This document shows positions 27,726-40,501 of a stretch of 52,890 nucleotides of DNA, one piece after another; position 1 is the first letter of the stretch, and each line of letters begins with the position of its first letter. Source of the DNA: a virus (Duplodnaviria; Caudoviricetes). Location of the stretch: positions 1 through 52,890 of the IMG/VR virus record IMGVR_UViG_3300033412_000021. One strand, 5' to 3'. The position numbers and the translations under genes are program-made. The notes below the pieces were generated by a model. The model searched no databases. It was not told the origin of the DNA and saw only the letters and a list, made by a program, of their open reading frames with translations.

Positions 27726-27878
27726 ATGGCTGATACACGAAAAATCGTAAGCGAGACCTTCGTGGACGAAAAGGGCAACGTGGTCAAAGATGCGAAAGAC
27801 GCCGCCCGGATCGAGGTGGTGGAAAAGCTGCCCAATGGGGAAACCCAGTCGACGGTGCTCATCAGAAAGGGTTCCTAG
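27726..27878 (+). CDS. Small antisense-strand protein (50 aa, not in ORF track); candidate inhibitor of the adjacent zincin domain
   Basis: MADTRKIVSETFVDEKGNVVKDAKDAARIEVVEKLPNGETQSTVLIRKGS; CGGACA-N17-CATAAT-N6-ATG. Confidence 0.6.
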   Translation: MADTRKIVSETFVDEKGNVVKDAKDAARIEVVEKLPNGETQSTVLIRKGS

Positions 27879-30800
27879 GGCCGTGCCGGGACTGCTGCTG
27901 CCCCGGCAGGTCTCCTCGGGCCCGCAAGATTGCGCGTTGCTGCTCGGCGATGTCGGAGAACACCCGGTCCAGTAGGGCCGCCCTTTGGGGGAACAGGTCC
28001 CGGAAGAAAACCGGCAGGGATCCGTTGGGGTGTTGCCCGTGGGCGTGGACCCTGCCGACCTCGTGTTGCAGGTACATCATCACCGATTCGGCGAAATCCT
28101 CCAGGAGGGAAGATTTTCCATAATCGGTGACACCGTCGGGGACTTCCCGGCCCGCACCATGCTTCTTGTCGACTCCGTCCTCCAAGACGTTATGGGGAAC
28201 GAAACCCGGCGGTAGGGGGACGTGGGAGTCCGCGCCGATTGCAGCTCTCCAGGCGGGCCCTTCCGAGTTGACTTTGGCTAGCAGCGCCGGTCCGCGTCCG
28301 TCCACGTTGTGTCCGTACTCGTGGCGTAGCGAGAATTCGACATCGTTCGGGTGCATGCGGGTGCCAGCCCCCCAGACGTGTACCTTTCCCTTGCTTGCCG
28401 TCATCGCCGATACGTGTTCCGTGCCGAACCGTTTCGCCCAATACCCATCGTCGGGGTTTGCACCGTTGAGCCAGGCGATTCCGTGCTGAAGGGTACGGGC
28501 GTGGGGCAGCGACGACTGGAACCTGTCGAGGAAGCTCACGACGGCGTCATGGTTCTGGCCTGGCTGGTCCTCGATCAGATACGTGGTGCCGTTCCTGCGG
28601 ACCATGCGGCCCCGCCCCACGACATACCCACTGGACAGTTTCAAATCGCGGACCGGTACGCCGTCGGCGTCGGTGTCGCCGGGGGGCAATTGTCGATGCC
28701 ATTCGTCACCGTGGTCGCCTGTGATCACCGGCCCGCTAGGCGGTGTGGCGACTGGAACCTTTGCTCGCCCCTTCGCTACCACCGTTGCGGAGCCCCGAGC
28801 GGCTCCCGGGGCGTCAGCTTTTCCCGGCGGCTCCAAAGCAGAACGGTCCAGTTTTTCGACATCTTCGATGGCTTTACGGACCGCTGCATCGATCTCGAAT
28901 TTGCCTTCCTTCGACTCGTGGCGACGGTTGGCGAGGTCGCGTAGCCGGGAGATGAGACGGAACTTGCCCAACTGCCCAGACTCCCAATCGTGGGCAATCT
29001 TGGAAAGTAGTTCCAGCTCCGATCCTTGATGATCGGTGTCGTGAGCTAGCGGGACCTGCGCCAGTTTCCGCATCAGCGTCTTCAGCGGCGCCGGTGTAGC
29101 CTCCGGTAGCTCCGGCGTCTTCCCTTCCGGAACTGACAGCTTCTCCACAGCGGCAGCCACAGCCGCCTTCGCTCTTGACCCGGCGGGCAGTTGTGCCTCC
29201 AGCGCCTTCAGCTTCTCCAGTTGCTGTTTAGCAGTGGTTTTTCCCGCCACAGTGTCGGTAGCGATATGGCCGAGGACATTGTCGAGGCGGTCACCGTCAA
29301 CGTTTAGGCCCGCGTCCGTGCCCAGACCAGAGATGGCCACACCGATAGCTCCGTCGGGATGGAAGTGGACATCTCCAGGCTTGCGCAGGCCACCCCAACT
29401 GTTTGCAACCTTCGCCTTCGTAGACATGCGTCCCGCCATGACTGCCGTCTGCGGGGACGACGGAGCCTCCGGGCCACTTTCCGGTCGCTTGACTCTCGAC
29501 CCGAGGATCGCGTTGCTGTCCTCGCTGGCGCCTGCCCAGCGGATCAGAGTGTTGCGCAACTGCTGGGCGGTGTCGCTCTTGCGGTAGGGAACGTTGCCCT
29601 CGTCGGCCAATGCGACCAGGTCCCGTTTCGGCAGATCCTTGATCATCTCGCGGGCCTTGTCGCGACTTTGCAGCGCGTCGAACTTCTTCCACTGCTCCTT
29701 GACGTCCTGAGACTCTTTCGCTGGGGCCGCCACCGTGGCCACATCGGCTTTGGACAACTGGAGTTGGTCTCCGCCCTCGTTTACCGCATGGCCGGGCCGG
29801 ACAACAGTCACTTTCGCGCCCTTAGCTGGGGCCTTTCCTACCGCCTTGTGTTTCGCCGGGTCGAACGCCACCGTCTCTCCGGCCCGGCCGATCGGGGACA
29901 ACCCGGCCCCAGCATGGGCACCCCTGGCGACGGCATCCATTTCCTCGATCGAATCTGCTGCTGCAAGCCTCTTGGCCAGCGCCTGGACCTGCGCGTTGTC
30001 TGGATATTGGCGAGCCTTCCCGGCCACTCGGCCCTTCGCCACATCGAGATCTGCCCCAGATCCGCGCATTTCATCGACTTCAGCAATGACGTCAGCCACC
30101 TCGGTTGCCTTCGCCAACTTGGCCCGAGACTCCCGAGCTGCTGTCGCCTTCGCCACGACCGTCTTACCTGCGGGTTTCTCGGCCTTCGGGGCTGGAGCTT
30201 CCGACTTGGTACTGGGTTCACTTGTAGCAGCAGGGGTCTCCTGGGCAGGCTTCTTCTCCTCCGGGCCCAGGCCGAGATGCTCACGGCCCTTGGGCGTCAG
30301 GAAGTAGTGCGAGGTCTTCAGCGTCCCGGCGCCAACCTTGTTACCTTCGTCGTCTCGACGTTCGATCAGGCCCCGATCCTCCAGGCGCCGGAGGGTAGTC
30401 ACGTTGAGGCCCTTGCCCCCGGAGCGGCCACGGGCGATAACGCCAGCTTCGATCTTCTCCCCGCGCCCCTCCCGAGCAGCGACTTCTTCCAGGTTGCGCT
30501 GCTGGGCATCGGTCAGATCGCCCCTGGCGACAACCGTCTTCCCGGCGGGCTTCTCAGCTACTGACGCCCCAGCTGCGCTGACATCAGAAGCTTTAACGCC
30601 GCTACGGATCGCTTCAGAATTACGTCGGCTTCCTACCGTATGCTCACGAATATTCGCTCGGATATCAGCTACAGGGCCATTCGGGGAAACGTAGTAGGAC
30701 CGGGCCAAATCCTTGAGCCGCTGTCCCTTTACTTCGGCTAGGATCCGGTCCGCCTCTTCGCGGGTTTTGACCTCACCCAATTTCCCACGAATGTCGTCCA

Positions 30801-33645
30801 CGCCATCGGATCCTGCCCCCTTGGCAACTACTGTCCTCCCAGCGGGCTTCTCCGGCTTTGCCGTTTCTGGCTTCTGCGCCTCAGCCTTCGGGATGAGACC
30901 TTCGCGTTCGAGAACCTTCCGGGTGGCGGGGTGGATCTTCGCATTCGGGTCAGCTTTCAGCGCATCGATAGCCTTCTGCTGCGCCGGGGTGACCTTGTGT
31001 TCCTTCTTCGCGACGATCGTCTTCCCGCCGACCTCCTTGCCGGTCTTGGCATCGACTACCGCAATCCGACCGCCCGGGCTCTTTTCCTTCTCGCGCATTG
31101 CCGAAGCGGTCTGGTCAATGAGACGGTCCTTCTGCTCATCAGACAGGCCGTCCCAGACCTTCTTCTGCTCCGGTTCGAGCATGTTCCCAAGAACGTCACG
31201 ACGAATCTTCAGCTTCTCTTCGTCGGTCATCTTCGGGTCTTTGGCCTCGGCAGCGTCTACCTTCTCTTCGACCCGTTTCGCATCAACCTCAGGTACTGCC
31301 ACATCGACAACCGGACGGCGCAAGGTGATGTCCTTCTCGCCGTCGTTCAAGGTGTAGCCCGGACGGACGATCTCCACCTTCTCGCCCGGACGGTGGTCAT
31401 CTGATCCGATCCGCTGATGCTTGGTGCGGTCGAACGGCGTAACCTGACCCGCCCGCCCGGACCTGCTCAGGCCGTGGGATTCGGCGTACTGGTTAGCGAT
31501 CCGGCTCATCTCTGCCGTGGTCTTCGCAGCCTGAAGCTTGTCGTTCAGCTCGGCCAAGTCGTCTCCGCCGGGTTCTCCCTTGAACCGTTCGGCCATCGAC
31601 GCCATGCGCTTCTTGGACTCGTCGAGGGTGTTCTCGTTGAAGTCCAGCTCGTCCATGGCGGAAGCCATCTCGGCTACAGCTCGGGCCCGGTCAACGTGAT
31701 GCTGACGGGTACGTCCCTCGTCGTGAGTGCCTGCTGCTTTGACCTGCTCGCCGATGTGGCCCCGGCCCTTAGTCGGCTCTGGCGCTTTCTTCTCGGCGTT
31801 GCCCATGTCTTCGAGCTGCCGGTCAACCTGCTCCAAGCGGATGGAGACACGCTGGTGCTCGTCGAGCAGGGCCTCCTTCCGGTCACCGGTGACTCGTCGA
31901 TCGGACTCTAGACGATCGTTGATTTTCATCAACTTTTCGCCGAGCTGGTCTCGCTCCTTACGCAAAGCATCTGCCGAAGTTGCCTTCTTCTCCGGGGCTT
32001 TCTTCTCCGGCTCTTTGGTCGGAGCAGCCTTCTTCTCTGGCGCCTTCTTCTCTGGCGCCTTCTTCTCCGGCTTCGGCTCCGGCTTCTTGTCCTCTTTCGG
32101 CTCGGGGCGGTGGCTGCCAGCCGCCGCTACATCGCGGAGGTGGGCGGCTCGTTTCCGGTCCGCTTCCCGCTCGGCATCGATGTCACTTTTTTTAGCGACA
32201 ACTGTCTTACCGCCACCCTTCTTGGCGATGGCACGAGCCGACGCCTCCGGGTTCTTGGCGCCCTTAGCCGGGTACACCCACTTGTTGCCGACCTTCACCT
32301 GTCCGTGCGGGCCACGCCCGGGAACGTCTTCGAACTCGCCACCGTGGGGGTTGTCGATGTGGCGACTGCGACGGGCTCCAGGTACGCCGGGGACCCGGGG
32401 CTGACGGTGTCCGCCGGGCATGTCCCGGAACTCTTCGAGAGCTGCTCCGACAGCAGAAACGAGAGCGGCTTCGGCTACTCGCTCACTGCTGGGGTGACGG
32501 TCCCACGGGGCCTGGATGTTGGGGTCGTCGAGTTCGGCGGCAAGGTGGTTGTAGATCTGGGTAATGACGCCGCGCAGGCGGATTTTGTCTTCTTCGGGGA
32601 TGTTCGGCAGGCCACCGTGGGCGCCGGACAGCAGGGCCGCAGCGGCGTAGACGGCATGGTAGATGAGGTAAGGCTTACCGTCGATGATGTCGCCCCAGGG
32701 GAGCTTGTACCCGTCACGGCCCAGGGCGTCGCCGTTCGGGTTGACCCACAGGAACATCTTGTCGAGCTGCGCCCGGTCCTGACCTGCCCACGCTTCGATC
32801 CGCGACACGGCATCGTCAGCGTCGAACTCAGCTTCCCGGGGCGCAACGGGTGCACCTTTCCAACCCGTGCCGTTGACGCTGAAGTCTTCGATGTCGTCGA
32901 TGGCGGCGGTGACAGTCTCGGGTTCCTCGTCGTCGAACTGGAGCCGCAGGTCAGCGAACGCGGGGATGCGCACGATCGTCGCTGACCGCATCCGACCCTC
33001 TTTCAGGGTCTGGAGGTGCTTGCCGTCCGCGCCGGGACGCAGGGCTGCCGTGTACGAATCCAGGTCTACGCTAGCCCCGGCAACACCGTGTTCGATCAGG
33101 TGTTCGGCTTTGCGCACCTCGGGGATGATGTCCGGGTCGAGCATGTAGCCACGTCCCCAGATGAACGGCTGCCCATTATGCATGCGTTCCTCGGCATGCT
33201 CAATGACAGCAACGGTTACAGCGCCGTCGTGGCCGCGTCCGCTGTGTTCCTGCCATCCGAACGGCATCGGGAACGTCTGATATTTGAGGGTGTTCGGGGG
33301 GAAGATGCGACCGTCACCGGTCGGGGTGCCGATCGGTGCCAGCGGCCCGGACCAGGGGCGGCCTTTGAATCCGCTGCCCATGGCAGCGATGAGGTAGTCC
33401 AGGGCATGGGCGCCCTTGTGGGCGTTGACGCCGGGCCATTCACCGGTGGCGAGCTTGTGCAGGTTGGCGCAGAAGCCTTCGATCATGTGACCGGGAATGC
33501 CGTGCGCACGGGCGAAGGCTTCGCAGCGTTTGAAGTCGCCGGGACTGCCCCAGCCGATCTCGGCCGCGCCTTTGCCGTGGGTGTCCGAGCGGATCAGTTG
33601 CGGCGGGATCCGTGTGGTGACCGTGTTGTCGGCCAGGGTCTCCAT
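27862..33645 (-). CDS. Giant multidomain head protein: protease-like N-terminus, GrpE-like, HeH and wHTH modules, C-terminal zincin
   Basis: ~1927 aa; TGDGRIF...GHDGAV...GASVDLD; two FDxxKH...VRPG domains; HEYGH...VTDYGKSSLLEDFAES. Confidence 0.75.
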   Translation of the reverse strand: METLADNTVTTRIPPQLIRSDTHGKGAAEIGWGSPGDFKRCEAFARAHGIPGHMIEGFCANLHKLATGEWPGVNAHKGAHALDYLIAAMGSGFKGRPWSGPLAPIGTPTGDGRIFPPNTLKYQTFPMPFGWQEHSGRGHDGAVTVAVIEHAEERMHNGQPFIWGRGYMLDPDIIPEVRKAEHLIEHGVAGASVDLDSYTAALRPGADGKHLQTLKEGRMRSATIVRIPAFADLRLQFDDEEPETVTAAIDDIEDFSVNGTGWKGAPVAPREAEFDADDAVSRIEAWAGQDRAQLDKMFLWVNPNGDALGRDGYKLPWGDIIDGKPYLIYHAVYAAAALLSGAHGGLPNIPEEDKIRLRGVITQIYNHLAAELDDPNIQAPWDRHPSSERVAEAALVSAVGAALEEFRDMPGGHRQPRVPGVPGARRSRHIDNPHGGEFEDVPGRGPHGQVKVGNKWVYPAKGAKNPEASARAIAKKGGGKTVVAKKSDIDAEREADRKRAAHLRDVAAAGSHRPEPKEDKKPEPKPEKKAPEKKAPEKKAAPTKEPEKKAPEKKATSADALRKERDQLGEKLMKINDRLESDRRVTGDRKEALLDEHQRVSIRLEQVDRQLEDMGNAEKKAPEPTKGRGHIGEQVKAAGTHDEGRTRQHHVDRARAVAEMASAMDELDFNENTLDESKKRMASMAERFKGEPGGDDLAELNDKLQAAKTTAEMSRIANQYAESHGLSRSGRAGQVTPFDRTKHQRIGSDDHRPGEKVEIVRPGYTLNDGEKDITLRRPVVDVAVPEVDAKRVEEKVDAAEAKDPKMTDEEKLKIRRDVLGNMLEPEQKKVWDGLSDEQKDRLIDQTASAMREKEKSPGGRIAVVDAKTGKEVGGKTIVAKKEHKVTPAQQKAIDALKADPNAKIHPATRKVLEREGLIPKAEAQKPETAKPEKPAGRTVVAKGAGSDGVDDIRGKLGEVKTREEADRILAEVKGQRLKDLARSYYVSPNGPVADIRANIREHTVGSRRNSEAIRSGVKASDVSAAGASVAEKPAGKTVVARGDLTDAQQRNLEEVAAREGRGEKIEAGVIARGRSGGKGLNVTTLRRLEDRGLIERRDDEGNKVGAGTLKTSHYFLTPKGREHLGLGPEEKKPAQETPAATSEPSTKSEAPAPKAEKPAGKTVVAKATAARESRAKLAKATEVADVIAEVDEMRGSGADLDVAKGRVAGKARQYPDNAQVQALAKRLAAADSIEEMDAVARGAHAGAGLSPIGRAGETVAFDPAKHKAVGKAPAKGAKVTVVRPGHAVNEGGDQLQLSKADVATVAAPAKESQDVKEQWKKFDALQSRDKAREMIKDLPKRDLVALADEGNVPYRKSDTAQQLRNTLIRWAGASEDSNAILGSRVKRPESGPEAPSSPQTAVMAGRMSTKAKVANSWGGLRKPGDVHFHPDGAIGVAISGLGTDAGLNVDGDRLDNVLGHIATDTVAGKTTAKQQLEKLKALEAQLPAGSRAKAAVAAAVEKLSVPEGKTPELPEATPAPLKTLMRKLAQVPLAHDTDHQGSELELLSKIAHDWESGQLGKFRLISRLRDLANRRHESKEGKFEIDAAVRKAIEDVEKLDRSALEPPGKADAPGAARGSATVVAKGRAKVPVATPPSGPVITGDHGDEWHRQLPPGDTDADGVPVRDLKLSSGYVVGRGRMVRRNGTTYLIEDQPGQNHDAVVSFLDRFQSSLPHARTLQHGIAWLNGANPDDGYWAKRFGTEHVSAMTASKGKVHVWGAGTRMHPNDVEFSLRHEYGHNVDGRGPALLAKVNSEGPAWRAAIGADSHVPLPPGFVPHNVLEDGVDKKHGAGREVPDGVTDYGKSSLLEDFAESVMMYLQHEVGRVHAHGQHPNGSLPVFFRDLFPQRAALLDRVFSDIAEQQRAILRARGDLPGQQQSRHGPRNPF

Positions 33646-34352
33646 CACGCCTCCAAGACGGCCGTACACCGGCAGTTGATCACTTCTTCGGGAGGTCCCG
33701 CTTTGTCGCCGGGGTACTGCATCGGCCACGTTCCCACCAGGAATGGTTCCAGAAGCGGACGAACCTGTCCATCTGCCTCTTTATGTGTCGGGCGTACATG
33801 GTCGTCGTGGGAGGCGACCCACCGTTTCGTCATCGGAGTGCCGAGGTCACGTTGGGCCCGCTGGGCGCTGGCGAACCAGCCAGCGTTGTGGGCACCGTTC
33901 ACCTCAGTTACTGCGATCACGTTTGCCCTGTTCTTCCAGTTTTGCCCGTTGGTGTCCAGAATCGTATTGATACGTTCAGCAATGGTCTGTGTCGAGTCAC
34001 CATTGGCGGTGCCTTTAGCGATCTCGTCACGGATCTCAGCGAACACTTCGTCCGGGATCCTCCGGAGAAGGTTCCGGACTTGGGCCAGGTGTTGCTGAAT
34101 GAGCTGGGTGGGCGTATAGGGCGTGGTGTCGGGTACCGAGTCCCAGCCTTCGCGGACCGGGCGCCGCTCCAGCGAGTCGATTACCGTTTCGACGGACCTG
34201 AACCAGTCGTCGTTGTCGGAGTAGACGCCGCCAGGATCAGGAAGCATCCCCCATTCGGTCCAAGGAAACATCACCTTCTTGGCGATCCCTTTCACCCATC
34301 GGATGAGGATCGCCAGAATGAACGTGGCAAATGCGGCCTCCATGGGGGTCAC
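33645..34352 (-). CDS. MuF-like (SPP1 gp7) minor head protein
   Basis: RANVIAVTEV, KRWVASHDDHVRPTHKEADGQ, MQYPGD...EEVINCRC. Confidence 0.92.
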   Translation of the reverse strand: MTPMEAAFATFILAILIRWVKGIAKKVMFPWTEWGMLPDPGGVYSDNDDWFRSVETVIDSLERRPVREGWDSVPDTTPYTPTQLIQQHLAQVRNLLRRIPDEVFAEIRDEIAKGTANGDSTQTIAERINTILDTNGQNWKNRANVIAVTEVNGAHNAGWFASAQRAQRDLGTPMTKRWVASHDDHVRPTHKEADGQVRPLLEPFLVGTWPMQYPGDKAGPPEEVINCRCTAVLEA

Positions 34353-36256
34353 AGTAGGCCCCCACGCTCCAGATAGCCGCGCATTAGCCGGGGCTCATGC
34401 TGCTGATGGTTGACCATCAACGTCGCCGTGTACTCGGTGAGGATCTTGCGGACCAGGTCTGGGTCGCCGGGGATCGCCTGCCCGTTCATCGTCGACTCGA
34501 TGTGTCCGAAGCTCGCCGCCAGCAGCTGCCGGGCCCGGTCCTCGGTCACATCCAGAGACAGGTACGCCTCGTCGGCGGCCATGTTGCGGAACTGGGCGCC
34601 GCCCGGACCGCGCAGCAGAGCCTTGCCTGCCTTCTCCAGTGCCTGGCGTACGTGCAGATCGGCCATAGTGACCAGGGCCCAGGTGGCAGAGGCCGTCAAC
34701 TGCCGGTCCTTCGGGCCCGGGGTGGCGTTGTTCGGGGCGCCCGGCAGTGTGGACCGCTGCGGCTGCGACGAAGGGTTGATGTCCTTCAGGGTCCGCTCAG
34801 GCGGCGGCGGAGCTGGCGGCCGTCCCTGCGCGCCACCGATTCCAGGACCGCCAGGCTGACCCGGAAGTGGCGGGGCGGGCATCGAAATGTCCTTGATGCC
34901 GAGTTCGGCCTTCTCCCGGATCTCAGGGATCTGCAACAGGTTCGCGGCGTCAGACTTCAGCAGGGTCCGGATGAAGTTGCGCTGGTCTTCTTCCTTGCCG
35001 ATCTTCGCCGACTCGGGCAGATCGGCCGCCTTCAACACCTCATCTACGCCGACCATGCCCTCAGCAAACATCTCCATCGTCTCTTTGAGACGATTGGGCC
35101 GGGTGACCAGGGAGGCACAGTCGAACCAATACTTGTACCTGCCCGGATCCTTACCCTTCATCCTCAGGACAGGCTTCAGATAGTTGTCGGTGAGCGCGTT
35201 GCAGATACGCGTCATGACCGGCTTGACCACATTATCCACTGTGGACTGTTCGATGCCGGGTCCGTTCCAGTGGTTGCTGTCGGACATGCCGTTGACGATC
35301 TCGGGCGCCACGTCCATGCCCCGCGACACCGTTCCCCGGCACTCGCCACGCAGTTCCATGGCCTGCTGGGACAGGATGGAGCCGAAGATGATCGGGTCTT
35401 TGATCGCGGCCAGGGCTTCAGGGTCGGCTCCGGCGAGAATGGGAACGAGCTGTGAGGCGTTGCCGAAGTTGTTGATGTTGAACTTGGCGCCGTCCATCAG
35501 CCGCCGGAACAGCCCGTCCATGCCCGCCGGATAGTCGTCAGACGCCGGGAAGTCCAGGTTGTTCGGCAGGAACCAGACACCACCAGACGCCAGGCGGCTA
35601 CGGGCCTGGGCGAGGATGTACTGGGTGAGGATCTCCAGCTCGATCAGTGTCATCTGCAACGAGCGGCCCGGGGAGTAGGCGGCGATCGTGTTCTGCGGAT
35701 GCGGGGTCCAGGTGCGGAAGATGATGTCGCGGCCTTCGCGCAGCGTGTATTCCTTGTTGCCGAAGCTGTAGGCGAACTGGCGTTGCGGCTGAGCGCCGGG
35801 GTACTGGAAGAAGTCTTCGAGACGTCGCAGCTCGTTGAACTGGACAACGAACCAGCGGTCGAATTCTTCGCCAGCACCGAGCGCGTCCAAGCCGATCGTC
35901 CAGAACTCTCCGGACACCATCTGGGCGGTGCCCATGAGATTCAACAGTTCCGGCTGAGCTTCGGGTCCACCGAGGACAGTTGAGGCGAGCTTGCCGACAG
36001 GGTTCGTCGGGGCTACTTCCTTCTGGATCTGGCCACGGTCGTCGACTTCAGCAACATAGATCCGGACCCGGGAACAGGCTTGGCCGACATAGTTCGCGCA
36101 TCGGGCAAACTCGGGCACACAGTCGTATAGACGCCACAGTTCCTGCTGCCAAGCAGAGTCGAGGGACGCGTAGATCGGCCACAGCGGGTTGTTGAGGTCA
36201 ACGGCTGCCGCCGAGGCGATGACGCCTGGCGTCTTTTTGCGGCGACCGATGGCCAC
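34349..36256 (-). CDS. Portal protein
   Basis: Position between terminase and MuF; WQQELWRLYD.VPE, SRLASGG, NHWN. Confidence 0.8.
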   Translation of the reverse strand: MAIGRRKKTPGVIASAAAVDLNNPLWPIYASLDSAWQQELWRLYDCVPEFARCANYVGQACSRVRIYVAEVDDRGQIQKEVAPTNPVGKLASTVLGGPEAQPELLNLMGTAQMVSGEFWTIGLDALGAGEEFDRWFVVQFNELRRLEDFFQYPGAQPQRQFAYSFGNKEYTLREGRDIIFRTWTPHPQNTIAAYSPGRSLQMTLIELEILTQYILAQARSRLASGGVWFLPNNLDFPASDDYPAGMDGLFRRLMDGAKFNINNFGNASQLVPILAGADPEALAAIKDPIIFGSILSQQAMELRGECRGTVSRGMDVAPEIVNGMSDSNHWNGPGIEQSTVDNVVKPVMTRICNALTDNYLKPVLRMKGKDPGRYKYWFDCASLVTRPNRLKETMEMFAEGMVGVDEVLKAADLPESAKIGKEEDQRNFIRTLLKSDAANLLQIPEIREKAELGIKDISMPAPPLPGQPGGPGIGGAQGRPPAPPPPERTLKDINPSSQPQRSTLPGAPNNATPGPKDRQLTASATWALVTMADLHVRQALEKAGKALLRGPGGAQFRNMAADEAYLSLDVTEDRARQLLAASFGHIESTMNGQAIPGDPDLVRKILTEYTATLMVNHQQHEPRLMRGYLERGGLL

Positions 36257-36258
36257 TG

Positions 36259-36573
36259 TCAGCTCCCGTTGTTGAGACGACCGGCTGCGTGGGCTACCGA
36301 CCAAGCGGCTAAAAAGTACAAACCCCACAACTGTGTATTCATGATAGGGAACCAGGCAGCTGCCGTCACGGGCCAGGCGGTCCACCATCCAGCGCACCAG
36401 GGGCAATGTGCCCAGCGGGTGGCCAGGTGCTGGGAGCCAAGGTGCTTGATCAGCCAGGCCCGCCACGGTTCTGTGATCTCATCTTCGGCGATAAGCCGAG
36501 CAACCCGGGCATTAGCCCCGTGGGCTACGGCCAGCGATACCACAAGCATGGCAATCGTCGCAAGATCTGGCAT
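36259..36573 (-). CDS. Membrane protein (DUF1360-like)
   Basis: ARVARLIAEDEITEPWR...CPWCAGWW; leaderless TATCCT-N6-ATG. Confidence 0.7.
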   Translation of the reverse strand: MPDLATIAMLVVSLAVAHGANARVARLIAEDEITEPWRAWLIKHLGSQHLATRWAHCPWCAGWWTAWPVTAAAWFPIMNTQLWGLYFLAAWSVAHAAGRLNNGS

Positions 36574-36634
36574 GCGCCCAGGATAGTGGCAAATCGGGCA
36601 GCTTGTCACCAACCCGGATTCTTGCCACTCGCAC

Positions 36635-36663
36635 TTGTCGATCGCCGTTTCCCTTATTAGTGT
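36635..36663 (+). promoter_or_regulatory. SigA-like promoter of the array/Cas7-like cassette
   Basis: TTGTCG-N17-TAGTGT; predicted start ~36670, at the first array base. Confidence 0.7.
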
Positions 36664-36669
36664 TCTGAG

Positions 36670-37284
36670 AGTCACGGCTAGCCGGGGTTAGGCTAGGCGG
36701 GTCACGGCTAGGCAGCCACGGCTCGGCCTGGCACGGCGGGTCTAGGCAAGGTTCGGCTAGGCAAGGCAGCCAAGGCGCGGAGCGGAAGCGGCGTGGCAGT
36801 CAAGGCTAGACAAGGCGCGGTTGGGCTGAGCGAGGCAAGGCAGCCACGGCTGGACGTGGCGAGGCAAGGCTCGGCATGGCGGGGCAGCCACGGCGAGGCA
36901 AGGCCCGCATAGGCAAGGCTCGGCTGGGCAAGGCTAGGCAGTCAAGGCGAAGCCAGGCGTGGCAAGGTCCGGCAGGGCACGGCTAGGCGGGGCATGGCAG
37001 CCACGGTTAGGCAAGGCTCGGTAGGGCATGGCACGGCCAGGCAGCCAGGGCTAGGTAGGGCTAGTCGCGGCGGGGCTCGGCTAGGCGCGGCAGCCAGGGA
37101 ACGCAGTGGCTGGGCCCGGCACGGCTGGGTACGGCGTGGCAGTCACGGTTGGACCCGGGGCGGCATGGCCTGGCAAGGCGTGGCATGGCAAGGCAGCCGA
37201 GGTGAGCGCTGGAGACGCGAGGCATGGCTAGGCGCGGCAGTCGAGGCGCGACGGGACGTGGCAAGGCAAGGCACGGCAAGGTCC
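36670..37284 (+). repeat. GGY-NN pentamer array 1 (13 units separated by GGCAGYC); putative guide-RNA array
   Basis: 5-nt period with variable NN; separators at 36711, 36765, 36795, 36839, 36883, 36937, 36996, 37040, 37089, 37138, 37192 and 37236; spacings 9+5n except one. Confidence 0.92.
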
Positions 37285-37314
37285 ACATTGTTCAAACGAG
37301 AGAGGAATGAGAAG

Positions 37315-37932
37315 TTGGCACAGGCGGAACGAGAAACAACGATTGATCTTCAGCCGATCAAGCGGTCCATCATCCCGGTGGAGATCGTGGGCGTAACGCC
37401 TCTGATCCCTCATAAGTGGTCCGAAAAAGCCAAGCGGCTCATGCGTGAGGCCCAAAGCGGCGTCAAAACCAAGGCCGCCAGGGATCCGAAGGTCCCCCAA
37501 GAGGAGGCCGAGGCGAGCCTGTATCGGCTCCCCGACGGAACCCCGGGCATGCCCTCGACAGCGTTCAAGGCAGCCATGGTCGGCGCAGTCCGACTGTTTC
37601 AGGGACTGACCATGGTCCAGGCGAAGTCTTCCCTGTTCGTTCTGGGCGAAGGCCCGGACCAGCTGGTACGCATCGACGCCGGGGATCTGATCCTGCGCGA
37701 GGACACGCCACGTAACGCGAACGGCAACGCCGACCTGCGTTACCGATACGCCCTGTGGCCGTGGACGGCGGTGCTGGAGATCGAGTATCTGGAGTCGTTC
37801 ATCAGCGAGTCTTCGGTGGTCGCGCTTCTGGATGCTGCCGGTGACGGCGGCGTCGGGGACTGGCGTCCGAGCGCGCCGAAGTCTCACACGGGCACGTTCG
37901 GTCGTTTCCGCGTGAAGGCGTTGACGGCCTAA
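37315..37932 (+). CDS. Cas7/RAMP-like RNA-binding protein (Vipr-like)
   Basis: TTG after GAGAGGA; VEIVGVTPLIPH, GMPSTAFKAAM, DLRYR...W, and G-rich loop AGDGGVGDWRP...GTFGRFRV. Confidence 0.8.
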   Translation: MAQAERETTIDLQPIKRSIIPVEIVGVTPLIPHKWSEKAKRLMREAQSGVKTKAARDPKVPQEEAEASLYRLPDGTPGMPSTAFKAAMVGAVRLFQGLTMVQAKSSLFVLGEGPDQLVRIDAGDLILREDTPRNANGNADLRYRYALWPWTAVLEIEYLESFISESSVVALLDAAGDGGVGDWRPSAPKSHTGTFGRFRVKALTA

Positions 37933-38387
37933 TGACTGATCCCACGCAAATGATCGACGATCCGGAGGTTGTCGAGGCGCTCGAAGTGATCGCCAAGGAT
38001 GACCCGGATGGTTTGGTCCAGCCAGAGAAGGTGGTGGAGGCGGCAGCGGATCCGTTGTCTCCGCTACACAAATTCTTCGAATGGGACGATTCGGAAGCCG
38101 CACATCAGTGGCGGCTGGTCCAGGCCCGCAAGCTCGTGGTCCGGGTCGTGGTTCGAGATGCTAGCCACAAGCCCGCACGGATGAACGTGATCATTCAGCG
38201 GGCCGACGGCAGCAAGGGTCAGGGCTACATCCCGACCGAGCGAGCCGTGAACGACGAGGAGCTTTGCACTCAGCTGATGCACGACGCGAAGCGGGCGCTG
38301 ATCGCGTATCGAACGCGGCTTGCGCCTTTCGAGCGGGCCCAGGACGTCATCGCCAAGCTGGACGAGGCTCTAGAGCAACTTCCGTAA
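37932..38387 (+). CDS. Accessory protein of the array cassette, unknown function
   Basis: TAATG coupling to the RAMP-like gene; VVEAAADPLSPLHKFFEWDDSEAAHQWRLVQARKL. Confidence 0.8.
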   Translation: MTDPTQMIDDPEVVEALEVIAKDDPDGLVQPEKVVEAAADPLSPLHKFFEWDDSEAAHQWRLVQARKLVVRVVVRDASHKPARMNVIIQRADGSKGQGYIPTERAVNDEELCTQLMHDAKRALIAYRTRLAPFERAQDVIAKLDEALEQLP

Positions 38388-38390
38388 CGC

Positions 38391-38690
38391 GGCAGCCTTG
38401 GCTCGTCAGGGTTGGGCAAGGTTGACCAGGGCGAGCCGAGGCGTGGCAGGGCAGCCAAGGAAAGGATTGGCCAGGCTCGGCACTGCGGGGCTTGGCGCGG
38501 CGCGACTGGGCCAGGCATGGCGGTCACGGAGTGGCGCGATGCGGCGCGACTAGGCAAGGCCCGGCTGGGCCAGGCGTGGCAGCCATGGAGAGGGTTGGCG
38601 AGGCTGGGCGGGGCTCGGTATGCAATGGCAGTCTTGGCAAGGCGCGACTAGGCAGGGCAAGGCTTGGCTCGGCCAGGATTGGCCCGGCTG
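38391..38690 (+). repeat. GGY-NN pentamer array 2 (5 units)
   Basis: Separators at 38391, 38450, 38519 (GGCGGTC variant), 38578 and 38627; spacings 59, 69, 59 and 49. Confidence 0.9.
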
Positions 38691-38691
38691 G

Positions 38692-38723
38692 GAAGCCCCG
38701 GGGTCTTCGGACCCCGGGGTTTC
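38692..38723 (+). terminator. Intrinsic terminator closing the cassette
   Basis: GAAGCCCCGGGGTC-TTCG-GACCCCGGGGTTTC hairpin with cUUCGg loop. Confidence 0.8.
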
Positions 38724-38740
38724 GTATGTACGGTGGTCCC

Positions 38741-38962
38741 ATGGCCGAAGGCGACTGGCACGAGAACTCCGGCGGGCAACCGTTTCTGGAGACACTGCAC
38801 GGACCGAACGTAACTCGTTCATGTATCGATTGTGGGCACGTGTGTTACAGCGTCCCCGATTATCCTGATCCTCGGTGTGAGGAATGTTCTATCGCCCGGC
38901 GGGGGGCATTACGTCCAGTGGACCGGATGACCTTGCGAGTTAAGTTCCCTCGCGCTCGCTGA
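38741..38962 (+). CDS. Small zinc-ribbon protein
   Basis: CIDC...CEEC; leaderless TACGGT-N6-ATG. Confidence 0.55.
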   Translation: MAEGDWHENSGGQPFLETLHGPNVTRSCIDCGHVCYSVPDYPDPRCEECSIARRGALRPVDRMTLRVKFPRAR

Positions 38963-40501
38963 TCACCAACGGGTGTAGTCGAATCCGGCGCCAAGACCTT
39001 GGTCGAAACGGTCGAGGCTGTTGCGATCATAGGTGCGGGGGTCCAGGACCCGGACCTTGTTCTTTTCGCTGAGCATGTGGAACCGGCACGCGTGGACGAG
39101 CGCGTCCAAGCGGTCGGGGGATTCTTTGCCATCCCATTGGTTGAACTGGGTCAGTTGGTCTTCGAGCCGTTCGAACACGCCGACCATGTGCAGACGTTTC
39201 TGTTGGGAGCGCATGGCGACAGGTTCAGCTCGGGTCCTCTTGCCGAGCTTCGCGTCGACTCCCTCGAAGAAGGGTTCGGTGTCGGCGGGCATGAGTCCTT
39301 GCAGCTGCAACTCCCGGTAGGCGTCGTGGAACACGTCGCGCATCCACCGTTTCGCTCCGACGTCTTCGCAGACAACCCGGGAGGCGTTGTAGCGCAGGGC
39401 AACGAGCCACACGTGGACGGCTGCGCTGCGCCCGGCGGCTTGAATGGATTCGTCGGCGAGGACCCACAGGTCGTCGTCGCGGGTGCGGGCTACAACGATG
39501 ACACCCATCTCGTCGTGGGATTCGGCGGACGTGCGCCGAGGGTTGGCCAGGTTGCCCTGGTCGTCTACTTGGGCTGGGTCTACTCCGACCACAATGGATA
39601 CGATGTCGGCGTCGAGGGGCATGTGGTCCACGCGGGCGACGTCGAGGTCGGTCCGGGCGAACAGGGCGCCGTCTTCGTCTTCGAGGATTTCTCCGTACAG
39701 CTCTTGGCGGCCGATGCTGGTTCCGGCGTATCGGTTTTCGAGGGCTTGGAGGCTGTGGCTGTTGAGGTTGCTGGCGTTGTCGAAGGTGCTGCCTCGGATG
39801 ACGCGGATGGCGCCGGACTTTTTCGGGTCAGGGGATTGGACTTCTTGGAGCCAGCGGCGCAGGAGATGTGATCCCTTTTTCGGGGTGCTGGTGGCGAAGA
39901 CGCGGGGGTGGTCTCCGGGGATGTCGACGCGTAGGGCCGGGACGAGACCTTCGTCGTAGGTCGCCACAGCAGTTGGCCATTTGCAGATCTCGTCGCACCA
40001 GATGGAGACGAGGTTGTAGCCACGTCCGGCGTCTTCGTCGTCGGCTCCCTCGCACATGATCTTCGCGCCGGAGGAGAAGATGATCGTTGGCTTCGGCGAC
40101 TGCTTGTAGCGGTAGTCGATGTCACGCACAAGTCCGCGCCGGGTGAGGGCGTTGAGGACGCCGGAGTCACCTTCCATGCAGATGTTCTTGGCGTCGGCGA
40201 GGGTTTCGGCGACAACCAGGTGTTCGGTGGGGATGCCTGCGACGGATAGGGGATAAAGCAGGGGCCGTTCGGCTATCCATTCGGCTCCGGCTCGGGATTT
40301 GCCGAAGCCGCGACCGGCGAGGATGAGGAACAGGAACCAGTCTCCGGGCGGGGGTACCTGGGCTGGCCGGGACTCCCACCACCAGGCTCCTCGGATGATC
40401 TCTTCGAGCAGTTCGACGTCTTGCTCGGCCAGCCAGGCTTCCCGCTCGGCCTTGGTGCAGAGGGCGAAGCGTTCCCGCAGGCTCATATCCCTGGCGTCCA
40501 T
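38963..40501 (-). CDS. terL: Terminase large subunit
   Basis: Walker A AGRGFGKS, Walker B IWCDE, ATSTP, GRQELYGE, VGVDP, SPDRLDALV. Confidence 0.95.
   Translation of the reverse strand: MDARDMSLRERFALCTKAEREAWLAEQDVELLEEIIRGAWWWESRPAQVPPPGDWFLFLILAGRGFGKSRAGAEWIAERPLLYPLSVAGIPTEHLVVAETLADAKNICMEGDSGVLNALTRRGLVRDIDYRYKQSPKPTIIFSSGAKIMCEGADDEDAGRGYNLVSIWCDEICKWPTAVATYDEGLVPALRVDIPGDHPRVFATSTPKKGSHLLRRWLQEVQSPDPKKSGAIRVIRGSTFDNASNLNSHSLQALENRYAGTSIGRQELYGEILEDEDGALFARTDLDVARVDHMPLDADIVSIVVGVDPAQVDDQGNLANPRRTSAESHDEMGVIVVARTRDDDLWVLADESIQAAGRSAAVHVWLVALRYNASRVVCEDVGAKRWMRDVFHDAYRELQLQGLMPADTEPFFEGVDAKLGKRTRAEPVAMRSQQKRLHMVGVFERLEDQLTQFNQWDGKESPDRLDALVHACRFHMLSEKNKVRVLDPRTYDRNSLDRFDQGLGAGFDYTRW

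What the first reader, a model, noticed from the sequence alone, without database searches (positions are those of the whole stretch)
36670..37284. Array punctuation predicts guide boundaries: the transcript begins with the same AGYC that follows each separator
Seen: separators are GGCAGYC-NN, a 9-nt break in the 5-nt phase, with spacings 54, 30, 44, 44, 54, 59, 44, 49, 49, 54 and 44. The promoter puts the start at about 36670, at AGTCAC, the 3' part of a separator. Inference: processing at GGC/AGYC would give every guide the same 5' handle as the primary transcript. Non-GGY triplets (GGA, GAC, GCA) tend to lie in the 5' half of units, suggesting polarity. The 30-nt unit at 36765 has an extra base and may be decayed.
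Basis: partly seen in the sequence, partly recalled or inferred. Interest (0 to 1): 0.75.

Follow-up and report, generated by a model that had tools for sequence, protein, structure and literature searches.

The report
VIPR guide-RNA array in soil phage
The repeat tract is the guide-RNA array of a VIPR system, a phage-borne relative of CRISPR first described in 2026 preprints, and its regular one-base phase breaks most likely mark where one guide ends and the next begins.

Summary
Window 36670-37284 carries GGY-NN pentamers broken by 12 GGCAGYC separators at exactly the listed spacings, against 0.22 expected by chance.

It is a vrRNA array of a VIPR system (bioRxiv 10.64898/2026.04.26.720920). 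The next gene (37315-37932) folds as a Cas7-like RAMP. Its only PDB sequence match is the SUSP1 Vipr protein, sharing the GVGDWRP G-loop.

All 15 phase breaks in the window shift the 5-nt register by -1, as do 117 of 132 in relatives. This fits the "staggered arrays" the preprint names but did not confirm by sRNA-seq.

Three results support separators as guide boundaries:
- Unit sizes are 9-13 repeats.
- Related mycobacteriophages differ by whole-unit insertions or deletions ending at the separators.
- Soil variants share units 5-6 in otherwise different arrays.

The 5'-half decay of GGY is real (51/77 versus 71/77).

The exact cut site and transcript start remain unproven. No RNA data exist and no targets were found. 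This is a new member of a known kind.

The parts
36635..36663 (+). Candidate SigA-type promoter: TTGTCG (36635-36640), 17-nt spacer, TAGTGT (36658-36663). It would start transcription at about 36668-36672.
   Evidence: Read by eye. The consensus scanner did not call it. A related locus, L013, has TTGACG, a 15-nt spacer and TATACT ending about 7 nt before the first punctuation pentamer of its array. Inference only.
36670..37284 (+). vrRNA array 1: 13 units of GGY-NN pentamers. Each interior unit runs YCRN + (GGYNN)n + GGCAG. Units are 36672-36715, 36716-36769, 36770-36799 (decayed), 36800-36843, 36844-36887, 36888-36941, 36942-37000, 37001-37044, 37045-37093, 37094-37142, 37143-37196, 37197-37240 and 37241-37284.
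36770..36799 (+). Decayed 30-nt unit with one extra base and an internal register slip.
   Evidence: A contig of run X4 skips 36776-36833, with 16 other letters in between.
37300..37307 (+). Ribosome-binding site GAGAGGAA, 7 nt before the TTG start.
   Evidence: Sequence.
37315..37932 (+). vipr gene: a 205-aa minimal RAMP (Cas7-like). G-loop GVGDWRP at residues 180-185, thumb arginine R144, H33.
   Evidence: (phrog_4652).
37932..38387 (+). vap-like accessory gene, 151 aa (phrog_15946); fold not assigned.
   Evidence: Homologs lie beside vipr in 17 of 73 loci.
38391..38690 (+). vrRNA array 2: five units (38396-38454, 38455-38523, 38524-38582, 38583-38631, 38632-38690). It opens with a full GGCAG-CCTT punctuation 3 nt after the vap stop codon.
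38696..38729 (+). Terminator-like hairpin CCCCGGGGTC-TTCG-GACCCCGGGG followed by TTTCGTATGT.
   Evidence: One search gives the sequence. One search lists the stem at 38705-38719 with the T-rich tail.

Best explanation
The tract is the upstream vrRNA array of a phage-borne VIPR (Viral Interference Programmable Repeat) cassette. The cassette runs: own promoter, array 1, vipr, vap, array 2, terminator. It sits on the opposite strand between the large terminase and portal genes of an uncultured soil actinophage-like virus.

By analogy with the solved SUSP1 system, one Vipr protomer binds each GGY and presents the two variable bases. These read double-stranded DNA with a one-base skip and silence a competing mobile element.

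Each separator inserts 4 extra bases (YCRN after a constant GGCAG pentamer). The 5-nt register therefore moves by -1, and a Vipr filament cannot run across it. The array is thus divided into guides of about 9-13 repeats. The preprint calls this a staggered array.

What is shown: the anatomy, the protein family, the rule of the -1 break, and unit-wise evolution.

What is inferred: that the units become separate RNAs, where the cut lies, the transcript start, and the target rule in this clade. My guess for the cut is trimming of the unprotected YCRN linker by a host RNase.
For: Protein family.
- The A1 profile hits only the SUSP1 Vipr protein in the PDB (E = 0.0022). The alignment pairs R144/D182/W183/R184 with SUSP1 R138/D177/W178/R179. 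Section 5 of 10.64898/2026.04.26.720927 names those residues as the GGY contacts.
- H33 pairs with SUSP1 H17, but only in a weak stretch (score -2.3).
- The AF2 model (pLDDT 85.1, pTM 0.81) matches Cas7-family RAMPs: type VII Cas7, Csm3 and Cmr4, E about 2e-6, probability 1.00.

Arrays.
- GGY/5-nt arrays lie beside vipr, on its strand only, in 54 of 56 related loci. None lies on the other strand.
- Phase breaks are -1 in 15 of 15 cases in the window and 117 of 132 in relatives L001-L017.
- Window interior unit lengths are 44, 49, 54, 59 and 69 nt, plus one 74-nt run formed by the decayed unit and its neighbour. The preprint gives 9-16 repeats per vrRNA.

Unit-wise evolution.
- L010 equals L007 minus one 59-nt unit. 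L009 equals L008 minus two units (59+54 nt). In both cases the ends fall at GGCA|GGC.
- Contigs from runs X4 and X10 share 36833-36943 and 36830-36941 (units 5-6) with 1 and 3 other letters, inside different array contexts. One joint falls exactly at 36941.
- In run X6, 4 of the 5 listed differences in unit 6 (36904-36921) fall on NN positions and the fifth is a C>T at the Y position.

Punctuation opens arrays. Window array 2 opens with it 3 nt after the vap stop. The Saal-type arrays open with CTCTGGCA|GGC.

Polarity. 51/77 versus 71/77.
Against: - No RNA run holds the locus, so expression, ends and processing are untested.
- No natural target was found under the 1-nt skip rule. I searched 1.8 Mb of related loci counting both strands, the phage's own genome, five exact scans of IMG/VR, and 201 genomes of the genus of G001 with one guide of a prophage relative.
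- NN composition in the window (TA 11%, CG 0%) fits codon positions 1-2 of GC-rich genes no better than a uniform model.
- The consensus scanner called no + strand promoter.
- The vap fold could not be assigned.
- I could not see fig. S18 or the supplementary tables. Identity with the published staggered type rests on a figure legend.
- Breakpoints at separators could partly reflect recombination between the most conserved motifs.
Confidence: 0.8

Rival explanations
1. Same VIPR system, but the arrays are not cut into guides. Vipr filaments assemble segment by segment on one long leader or trailer RNA, beads on a string. The separators only break the register.
For: There is no ribozyme, tail or other Rfam family in 36000-39200. 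No nuclease gene lies in the cassette. The preprint did not confirm staggered arrays by sRNA-seq.
Against: All VIPR types tested so far gave discrete vrRNAs of about 100 nt or less. The legend of fig. S18 speaks of individual processed vrRNAs. A guide tethered to the vipr mRNA would couple silencing to translation of that mRNA.
Confidence: 0.15
2. The separators are scars of how the array grows, by unit duplication or recombination at a conserved motif. They are not a signal read by any machinery.
For: Units are duplicated within arrays. In L011 one duplicated junction carries one extra G, which puts two units in phase. Indel ends necessarily fall in the most conserved sequence.
Against: The -1 shift holds in 132 of 147 breaks (15 in the window, 117 in relatives), across lineages with different separator sequences. 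Arrays open with a separator that has no unit before it. Each lineage keeps its own constant terminal pentamer.
Confidence: 0.04
3. It is a DNA-level element (iterons, a packaging site or a centromere between terminase and portal), or a protein-titrating RNA like the TRAP-binding triplet repeats, with no guide function.
For: It lies between the terminase and portal genes. Triplets spaced by two bases recall TRAP sites (recalled, not tested).
Against: In relatives the same array-gene cassette sits in the early region or between tail genes, not at the packaging genes. Arrays lie strictly on the vipr strand in 54 of 56 loci. The partner protein is a RAMP that carries the GGY-binding residues.
Confidence: 0.01

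Closest known systems
VIPR systems with staggered vrRNA arrays (bioRxiv 10.64898/2026.04.26.720920; Results, Discussion, the type-classification method and figure legends read; figures and supplements not seen)
   Same: A minimal RAMP (Vipr) plus a small vap gene. GGY-NN pentamer RNAs lie on the gene strand in the flanking intergenic regions. The cassette is phage-borne. Units abut without tails. Relatives use GGCA|GGC, which reads as two pentamers sharing one G and so fits the legend's "1 nt overlapping positions".
   Different: In the window the junction is 9 nt (GGCAG + YCRN), not a 1-nt overlap. The first repeat of each unit is in effect G-Y-C, not G-G-C. I cannot tell whether the preprint's set includes this dialect, this clade or any actinophage. 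'Mycobacter', 'Actino' and 'Gordonia' have 0 occurrences in its main text.
Type II VIPR of Escherichia phage SUSP1 (PDB 36pp; cryo-EM preprint 10.64898/2026.04.26.720927, sections 5 and 6 read)
   Same: The G-loop GVGDWRP, the thumb arginine and the beta-sheet histidine are shared. There is one array before and one after the genes. Guides hold about 9-16 repeats. The 3' part dominates: protomers resolve 3' to 5' in SUSP1, and canonical GGY is kept in the 3' halves here.
   Different: Sequence similarity is barely detectable (E = 0.72 for the single sequence, 0.0022 for the profile). Units here have no invariant 3' tail or pseudoknot. They are packed head to tail.
Class 1 CRISPR-Cas Cas7 backbone with crRNA
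   Same: The protein has a RAMP fold. The protein periodically kinks the guide so that some bases are withheld from pairing (recalled; the preprint states it).
   Different: There are no repeat-spacer units, and no cas1/cas2 or other cas domains among the 8 neighbouring proteins scanned. The period is 5 nt with 2 informative bases, not 6 with 5.

Membership tests
VIPR system | The Vipr protein is a minimal RAMP (RRM core, G-loop, thumb). | tested here: met
   The AF2 model has pLDDT 85.1. The top Foldseek PDB matches are Cas7-family RAMPs at E about 2e-6. The A1 profile hits only the SUSP1 Vipr protein, E = 0.0022.
VIPR system | GGY-contact residues of SUSP1 Vipr are present (H17, R138, D177, W178, R179). 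| tested here: met
   The HMM alignment pairs R144, D182, W183 and R184 with R138, D177, W178 and R179. H33 pairs with H17 in a weak stretch. H33, R144, W183 and R184 are invariant, and D182 is kept in at least 90%, across the 27 sequences.
VIPR system | vrRNA genes are tandem GGY-NN pentamers on the vipr strand in the flanking intergenic DNA. | tested here: met
   Two arrays lie in the window and none elsewhere in its 52.9 kb. 54 of 56 relatives have arrays on the + strand only. 66 of 94 GGY-to-next-GGY gaps (95 triplets) are exactly 5 nt, against 3.3 in shuffles.
VIPR system | NN positions are hypervariable while GGY is conserved. | tested here: met
   Units differ almost only at NN. In run X6, 4 of 5 listed differences in unit 6 fall on NN and one is C>T at Y. 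That table shows only 40 of 215 differences, so this is a sample.
VIPR system | An adjacent vap accessory gene is present. | tested here: met
   A 151-aa gene overlaps the vipr stop codon. Homologs lie beside vipr in 17 of 73 loci by tblastn. Which of vap1-6 it is could not be told, because the supplements are closed.
VIPR system | Guides match natural DNA targets under the 1-nt skip rule. | tested here: inconclusive
   Nothing stood above the skip-0 and skip-2 controls in the loci held. There was no self-target. Five exact IMG/VR scans gave 0, 0, 0, 0 hits and 4 hits in phages of about 30% GC, read as chance. The nearest cultured phage portal is at most 28% identical, so competitors are probably unsampled.
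VIPR system | vrRNAs are expressed and bound by Vipr. | not testable with these tools
   No RNA run holds the locus.
Type II (SUSP1-like) VIPR architecture | Each vrRNA ends in an invariant structured 3' tail (pseudoknot). | tested here: not met
   Units abut with only 4 extra bases between them. No Rfam family matches.
Staggered-array VIPR architecture | [quoted passage not shown] | tested here: met
   -1 register breaks occur every 44-59 nt, 15 of 15 in the window. The published definition is known to me only from a figure legend.
CRISPR-Cas | A repeat-spacer array and adaptation genes are present. | tested here: not met
   Only 5-nt-based periods were found. None of the 8 neighbouring proteins scanned has a cas domain.

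The most novel reading that the evidence does not exclude
In this actinophage clade the register break is itself the measuring device. Vipr filaments stop where the 5-nt phase slips by -1. The 4 unprotected bases (YCRN, whose second base is always C in the 17 window units) are cut by a host RNase. Guides are thus made without a ribozyme, tail or dedicated nuclease, and the primary transcript mimics a processed 5' end. This would be a third, protein-templated route to guide maturation. The lineage-specific junction dialects (GGCA|, GGCAG+YCAN, GGCGT+TCAR, GGCCG+CCGG) might then keep co-infecting VIPR systems from using each other's arrays.
Probability: 0.3. Interest if true: 0.6.

Novelty: new member of a known kind. 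Interest (0 to 1): 0.42.

Why it matters
VIPR was described only in 2026 preprints, and its staggered arrays were not confirmed there by RNA sequencing.

This locus and its relatives give a concrete, testable rule for where guides begin and end in that architecture: a -1 break of the 5-nt register. About 27 records of isolated Mycobacterium smegmatis phages, including Saal, SwagPigglett and Donkeykong, carry the same system. Natural whole-unit variants already exist among them to compare.

The locus also shows that gene callers run into these arrays. The window's own protein is on record at 255 aa and Gordonia phage UmaThurman gene 40 lies on its array, so such loci are mis-annotated in public records.

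The system itself is no longer a surprise.

Tried and rejected
RNA evidence. No RNA holder was listed for window 36600-38750, so ends and expression could not be examined.

Target search under the 1-nt skip rule.
- All 18 window units against 1.8 Mb of held loci (both strands counted): no excess over the skip-0 and skip-2 rules. The perfect skip-3 hit of each unit longer than 30 nt is that unit matching its own array.
- 1292 nine-repeat windows from all arrays, all against all: one hit at 17 of 18 under each of the three rules.
- Own genome: best matches about 70-75% under every rule.
- Exact IMG/VR scans with window units 6, 7 and 16 and with mycobacteriophage units b and h: 4 hits in phages of 28-33% GC, read as chance, then 0, 0, 0, 0.
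- One guide of the Mycobacterium szulgai prophage relative. In its own genome there was 1 hit at 3 mismatches and 1 control hit. In 201 genomes of the same genus there were 4 hits against 1 control hit. I examined two: one lies in a glutaredoxin-like host gene and one at the start of a peptidase-like host ORF, so both read as chance.

NN composition against codon-phase models: no model beat uniform.

Accessory protein.
- Pfam, NCBIfam and PADLOC gave nothing credible for the vap protein.
- The PDB profile gave E = 1.1 to MinE.
- Foldseek's best was E = 0.17, with some winged-helix rows.
- VIA matched only the C-terminal helical hairpin at Z 6.7 or less.

An automated test of whether arrays start but do not end with a separator was too noisy to use: 7 versus 17 of 42 arrays, with imprecise array ends.

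RNA folding of array 1 gave z = -2.9 against 20 shuffles, which I do not interpret.

Rejected ideas: a coding pentapeptide repeat (TAG occurs in every frame), a TRAP-like titration RNA, an R-loop origin and a pac site (see the rival explanations).

Earlier findings of this scan were not open. Relatives of a virus record cannot be drawn.

Full report
**1. The observation.**
The tract 36670-37284 is made of GGC-NN pentamers. GGCAGYC occurs at 36711, 36765, 36795, 36839, 36883, 36937, 36996, 37040, 37089, 37138, 37192 and 37236.

Twelve copies lie in 615 nt, against 0.22 expected from the rest of the genome (P about 2e-17). Ten of 11 spacings are 4 mod 5. For 66 of the 95 GGY triplets the next GGY lies exactly 5 nt on, against a mean of 3.3 and a maximum of 12 in 1000 shuffles.

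A phase-tracking segmentation shows what a separator is. After a constant in-phase pentamer GGCAG come four extra bases (YCRN). Each unit therefore moves the 5-nt register by -1, in 15 of 15 breaks in the window.

GGY is kept in 51 of 77 pentamers in 5' halves and in 71 of 77 in 3' halves (P = 1.1e-4, 17 units, decayed unit left out).

**2. The surroundings.**
The window is a whole 52,890-base virus record. It came from soil metagenomes. Its portal is at most 28% identical to that of any cultured actinophage.

The array is followed by:
- a ribosome-binding site and a TTG-started 205-aa gene, 37315-37932;
- a 151-aa gene, 37932-38387;
- a GC-rich hairpin with a T-rich tail.

This + strand cassette lies between the large terminase gene (38963-40501) and the portal gene (34349-36466), both on the - strand.

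**3. What it is.**
The 205-aa protein has no Pfam family. Its only PDB sequence match is "SUSP1 Vipr protein" (36pp). The E-value is 0.72 for the single sequence and 0.0022 for a 27-sequence profile. The aligned stretch carries GVGDWRP and the LRYR arginine.

The cryo-EM preprint 10.64898/2026.04.26.720927 (sections 5 and 6 read) names H17, R138, D177, W178 and R179 of SUSP1 Vipr as the contacts to the GGY motif. The alignment pairs them with H33 (weak stretch), R144, D182, W183 and R184 here.

The AF2 model (pLDDT 85.1) matches Cas7-family RAMPs at E about 2e-6.

The preprint 10.64898/2026.04.26.720920 (Results, Discussion, type-classification method and legends read) defines VIPR as follows:
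- a minimal RAMP plus a vap gene;
- vrRNAs of 9-16 GGY-NN repeats in the flanking intergenic DNA;
- mostly phage-borne;
- the NN bases read double-stranded DNA with a 1-nt skip.

The window meets every feature I could test (see the membership table).

**4. Relatives.**
The protein family is large: 891 proteins at E of 0.001 or better, and 2743 clusters at 50% identity.

In 54 of 56 related loci a GGY/5-nt array lies beside vipr on its strand. None lies on the other strand or elsewhere in up to 20.7 kb of flank.

Twenty-seven mycobacteriophage records (Saal, Quico, Florinda, Brocalys and others; Vipr 62% identical) carry the array upstream of vipr, in the early region. In four Gordonia phages (UmaThurman, Pipp, Ecliptus, ODay) the genes were found. 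In the two whose DNA I read (UmaThurman, Ecliptus), the array lies between vipr and vap, and Ecliptus carries the cassette between tail genes. The cassette therefore moves as a unit.

**5. Do separators delimit guides?**
I could not test RNA, because no RNA holder was listed. Four indirect lines point the same way.

(a) The -1 break is the rule in relatives too: 117 of 132 breaks in L001-L017, with 7 at +1, 3 at +2 and 5 at +3. The junction sequence nevertheless differs by lineage: GGCA|GGC, GGCAG+YCAN, GGCGT+TCAR, GGCCG+CCGG.

(b) Units are 44-69 nt in the window, which is 9-14 repeats counting the two boundary pentamers. This is within the published range for a vrRNA.

(c) Mycobacteriophage arrays differ by whole units. 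L010 lacks one 59-nt unit of L007, and L009 lacks two units of L008. The ends fall at the punctuation.

(d) Contigs from other soil runs carry units 5-6 (36833-36943) with 1-3 other letters, while the neighbouring units differ. One joint falls at 36941, the last base of unit 6. These are metagenome contigs laid at 80% likeness in repeats, so single joints are weak evidence.

**6. Where a cut would be.**
The constant AG belongs in phase to the upstream unit's last pentamer.

Arrays open with punctuation that has no unit before it. Window array 2 starts GGCAG-CCTT three bases after the vap stop. Saal-type arrays start CTCTGGCA|GGC.

The transcript start is inferred only. My reading of the promoter is TTGTCG, a 17-nt spacer and TAGTGT, and the scanner did not call it. 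In L013 a near-consensus TTGACG, 15-nt spacer and TATACT ends about 7 nt before the first punctuation pentamer. That is a similar layout, with the start offset by about 3 nt relative to the pentamer.

**7. Polarity.**
In SUSP1, intermediates always show the protomers near the 3' end, and further protomers appear 3' to 5' (passage found). Stronger conservation of GGY in the 3' halves here fits a 3'-anchored process. This is analogy, not a test.

**8. Negative results.**
No target was found, the accessory protein's fold is unassigned, and the NN composition did not fit codon phases. Details are under Tried and rejected.

**9. Verdict.**
It belongs to a system already described in 2026 preprints. 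What remains open and testable is how staggered arrays are turned into guides.

Noticed in passing
window 38391-38690: A second vrRNA array of five units lies directly after the vap stop codon and ends in a terminator-like hairpin (38696-38729). The listed ORF 38492-38962 overlaps it and is probably spurious.
   Followed up: yes
window 36994-37932; L003 3634-3957: Open frames run through the arrays. The window's own Vipr is on record as a 255-aa protein, against about 195-208 aa in homologs. Gordonia phage UmaThurman gene 40 (hypothetical protein) lies entirely on its array. These are probably mis-annotations.
   Followed up: partly
window 27862-33729 (- strand): A 1955-aa ORF lies downstream of the portal and Mu-F-like genes. 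Its N-terminal part matches PHROG families listed with portal or minor head proteins. The rest is unassigned.
   Followed up: no
window arrays, NN positions: The variable dinucleotides are not random. In 115 NN positions of the window AA is 16%, TA 11% and CG 0%; CG is 2.5% in 997 NN positions of close relatives. Either targets are AT-richer than the phage's genes, or C is avoided to keep the G-rich RNA unfolded.
   Followed up: partly
L011 8583-8727 and 9010-9149: One array holds a duplicated block of units. In the second copy one extra G at the junction puts two units in the same register. This looks like a natural fusion of two units.
   Followed up: no
L001, L007-L010 array ends (e.g. L001 3222-3250): All six mycobacteriophage arrays end with the same short unit, GGAATGGCGGGGCTTGGCTGGGCAACC. 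It is not followed by punctuation. It may be a conserved terminal element or a conserved guide.
   Followed up: no
L078 (Mycobacterium szulgai contig) and L079 (Phycisphaerae MAG): These are the only two hits among GTDB species genomes. One is a prophage-borne relative (58% identity) with two staggered arrays. The other is a 47% relative in a planctomycete MAG, which hints at spread beyond Actinomycetota.
   Followed up: partly
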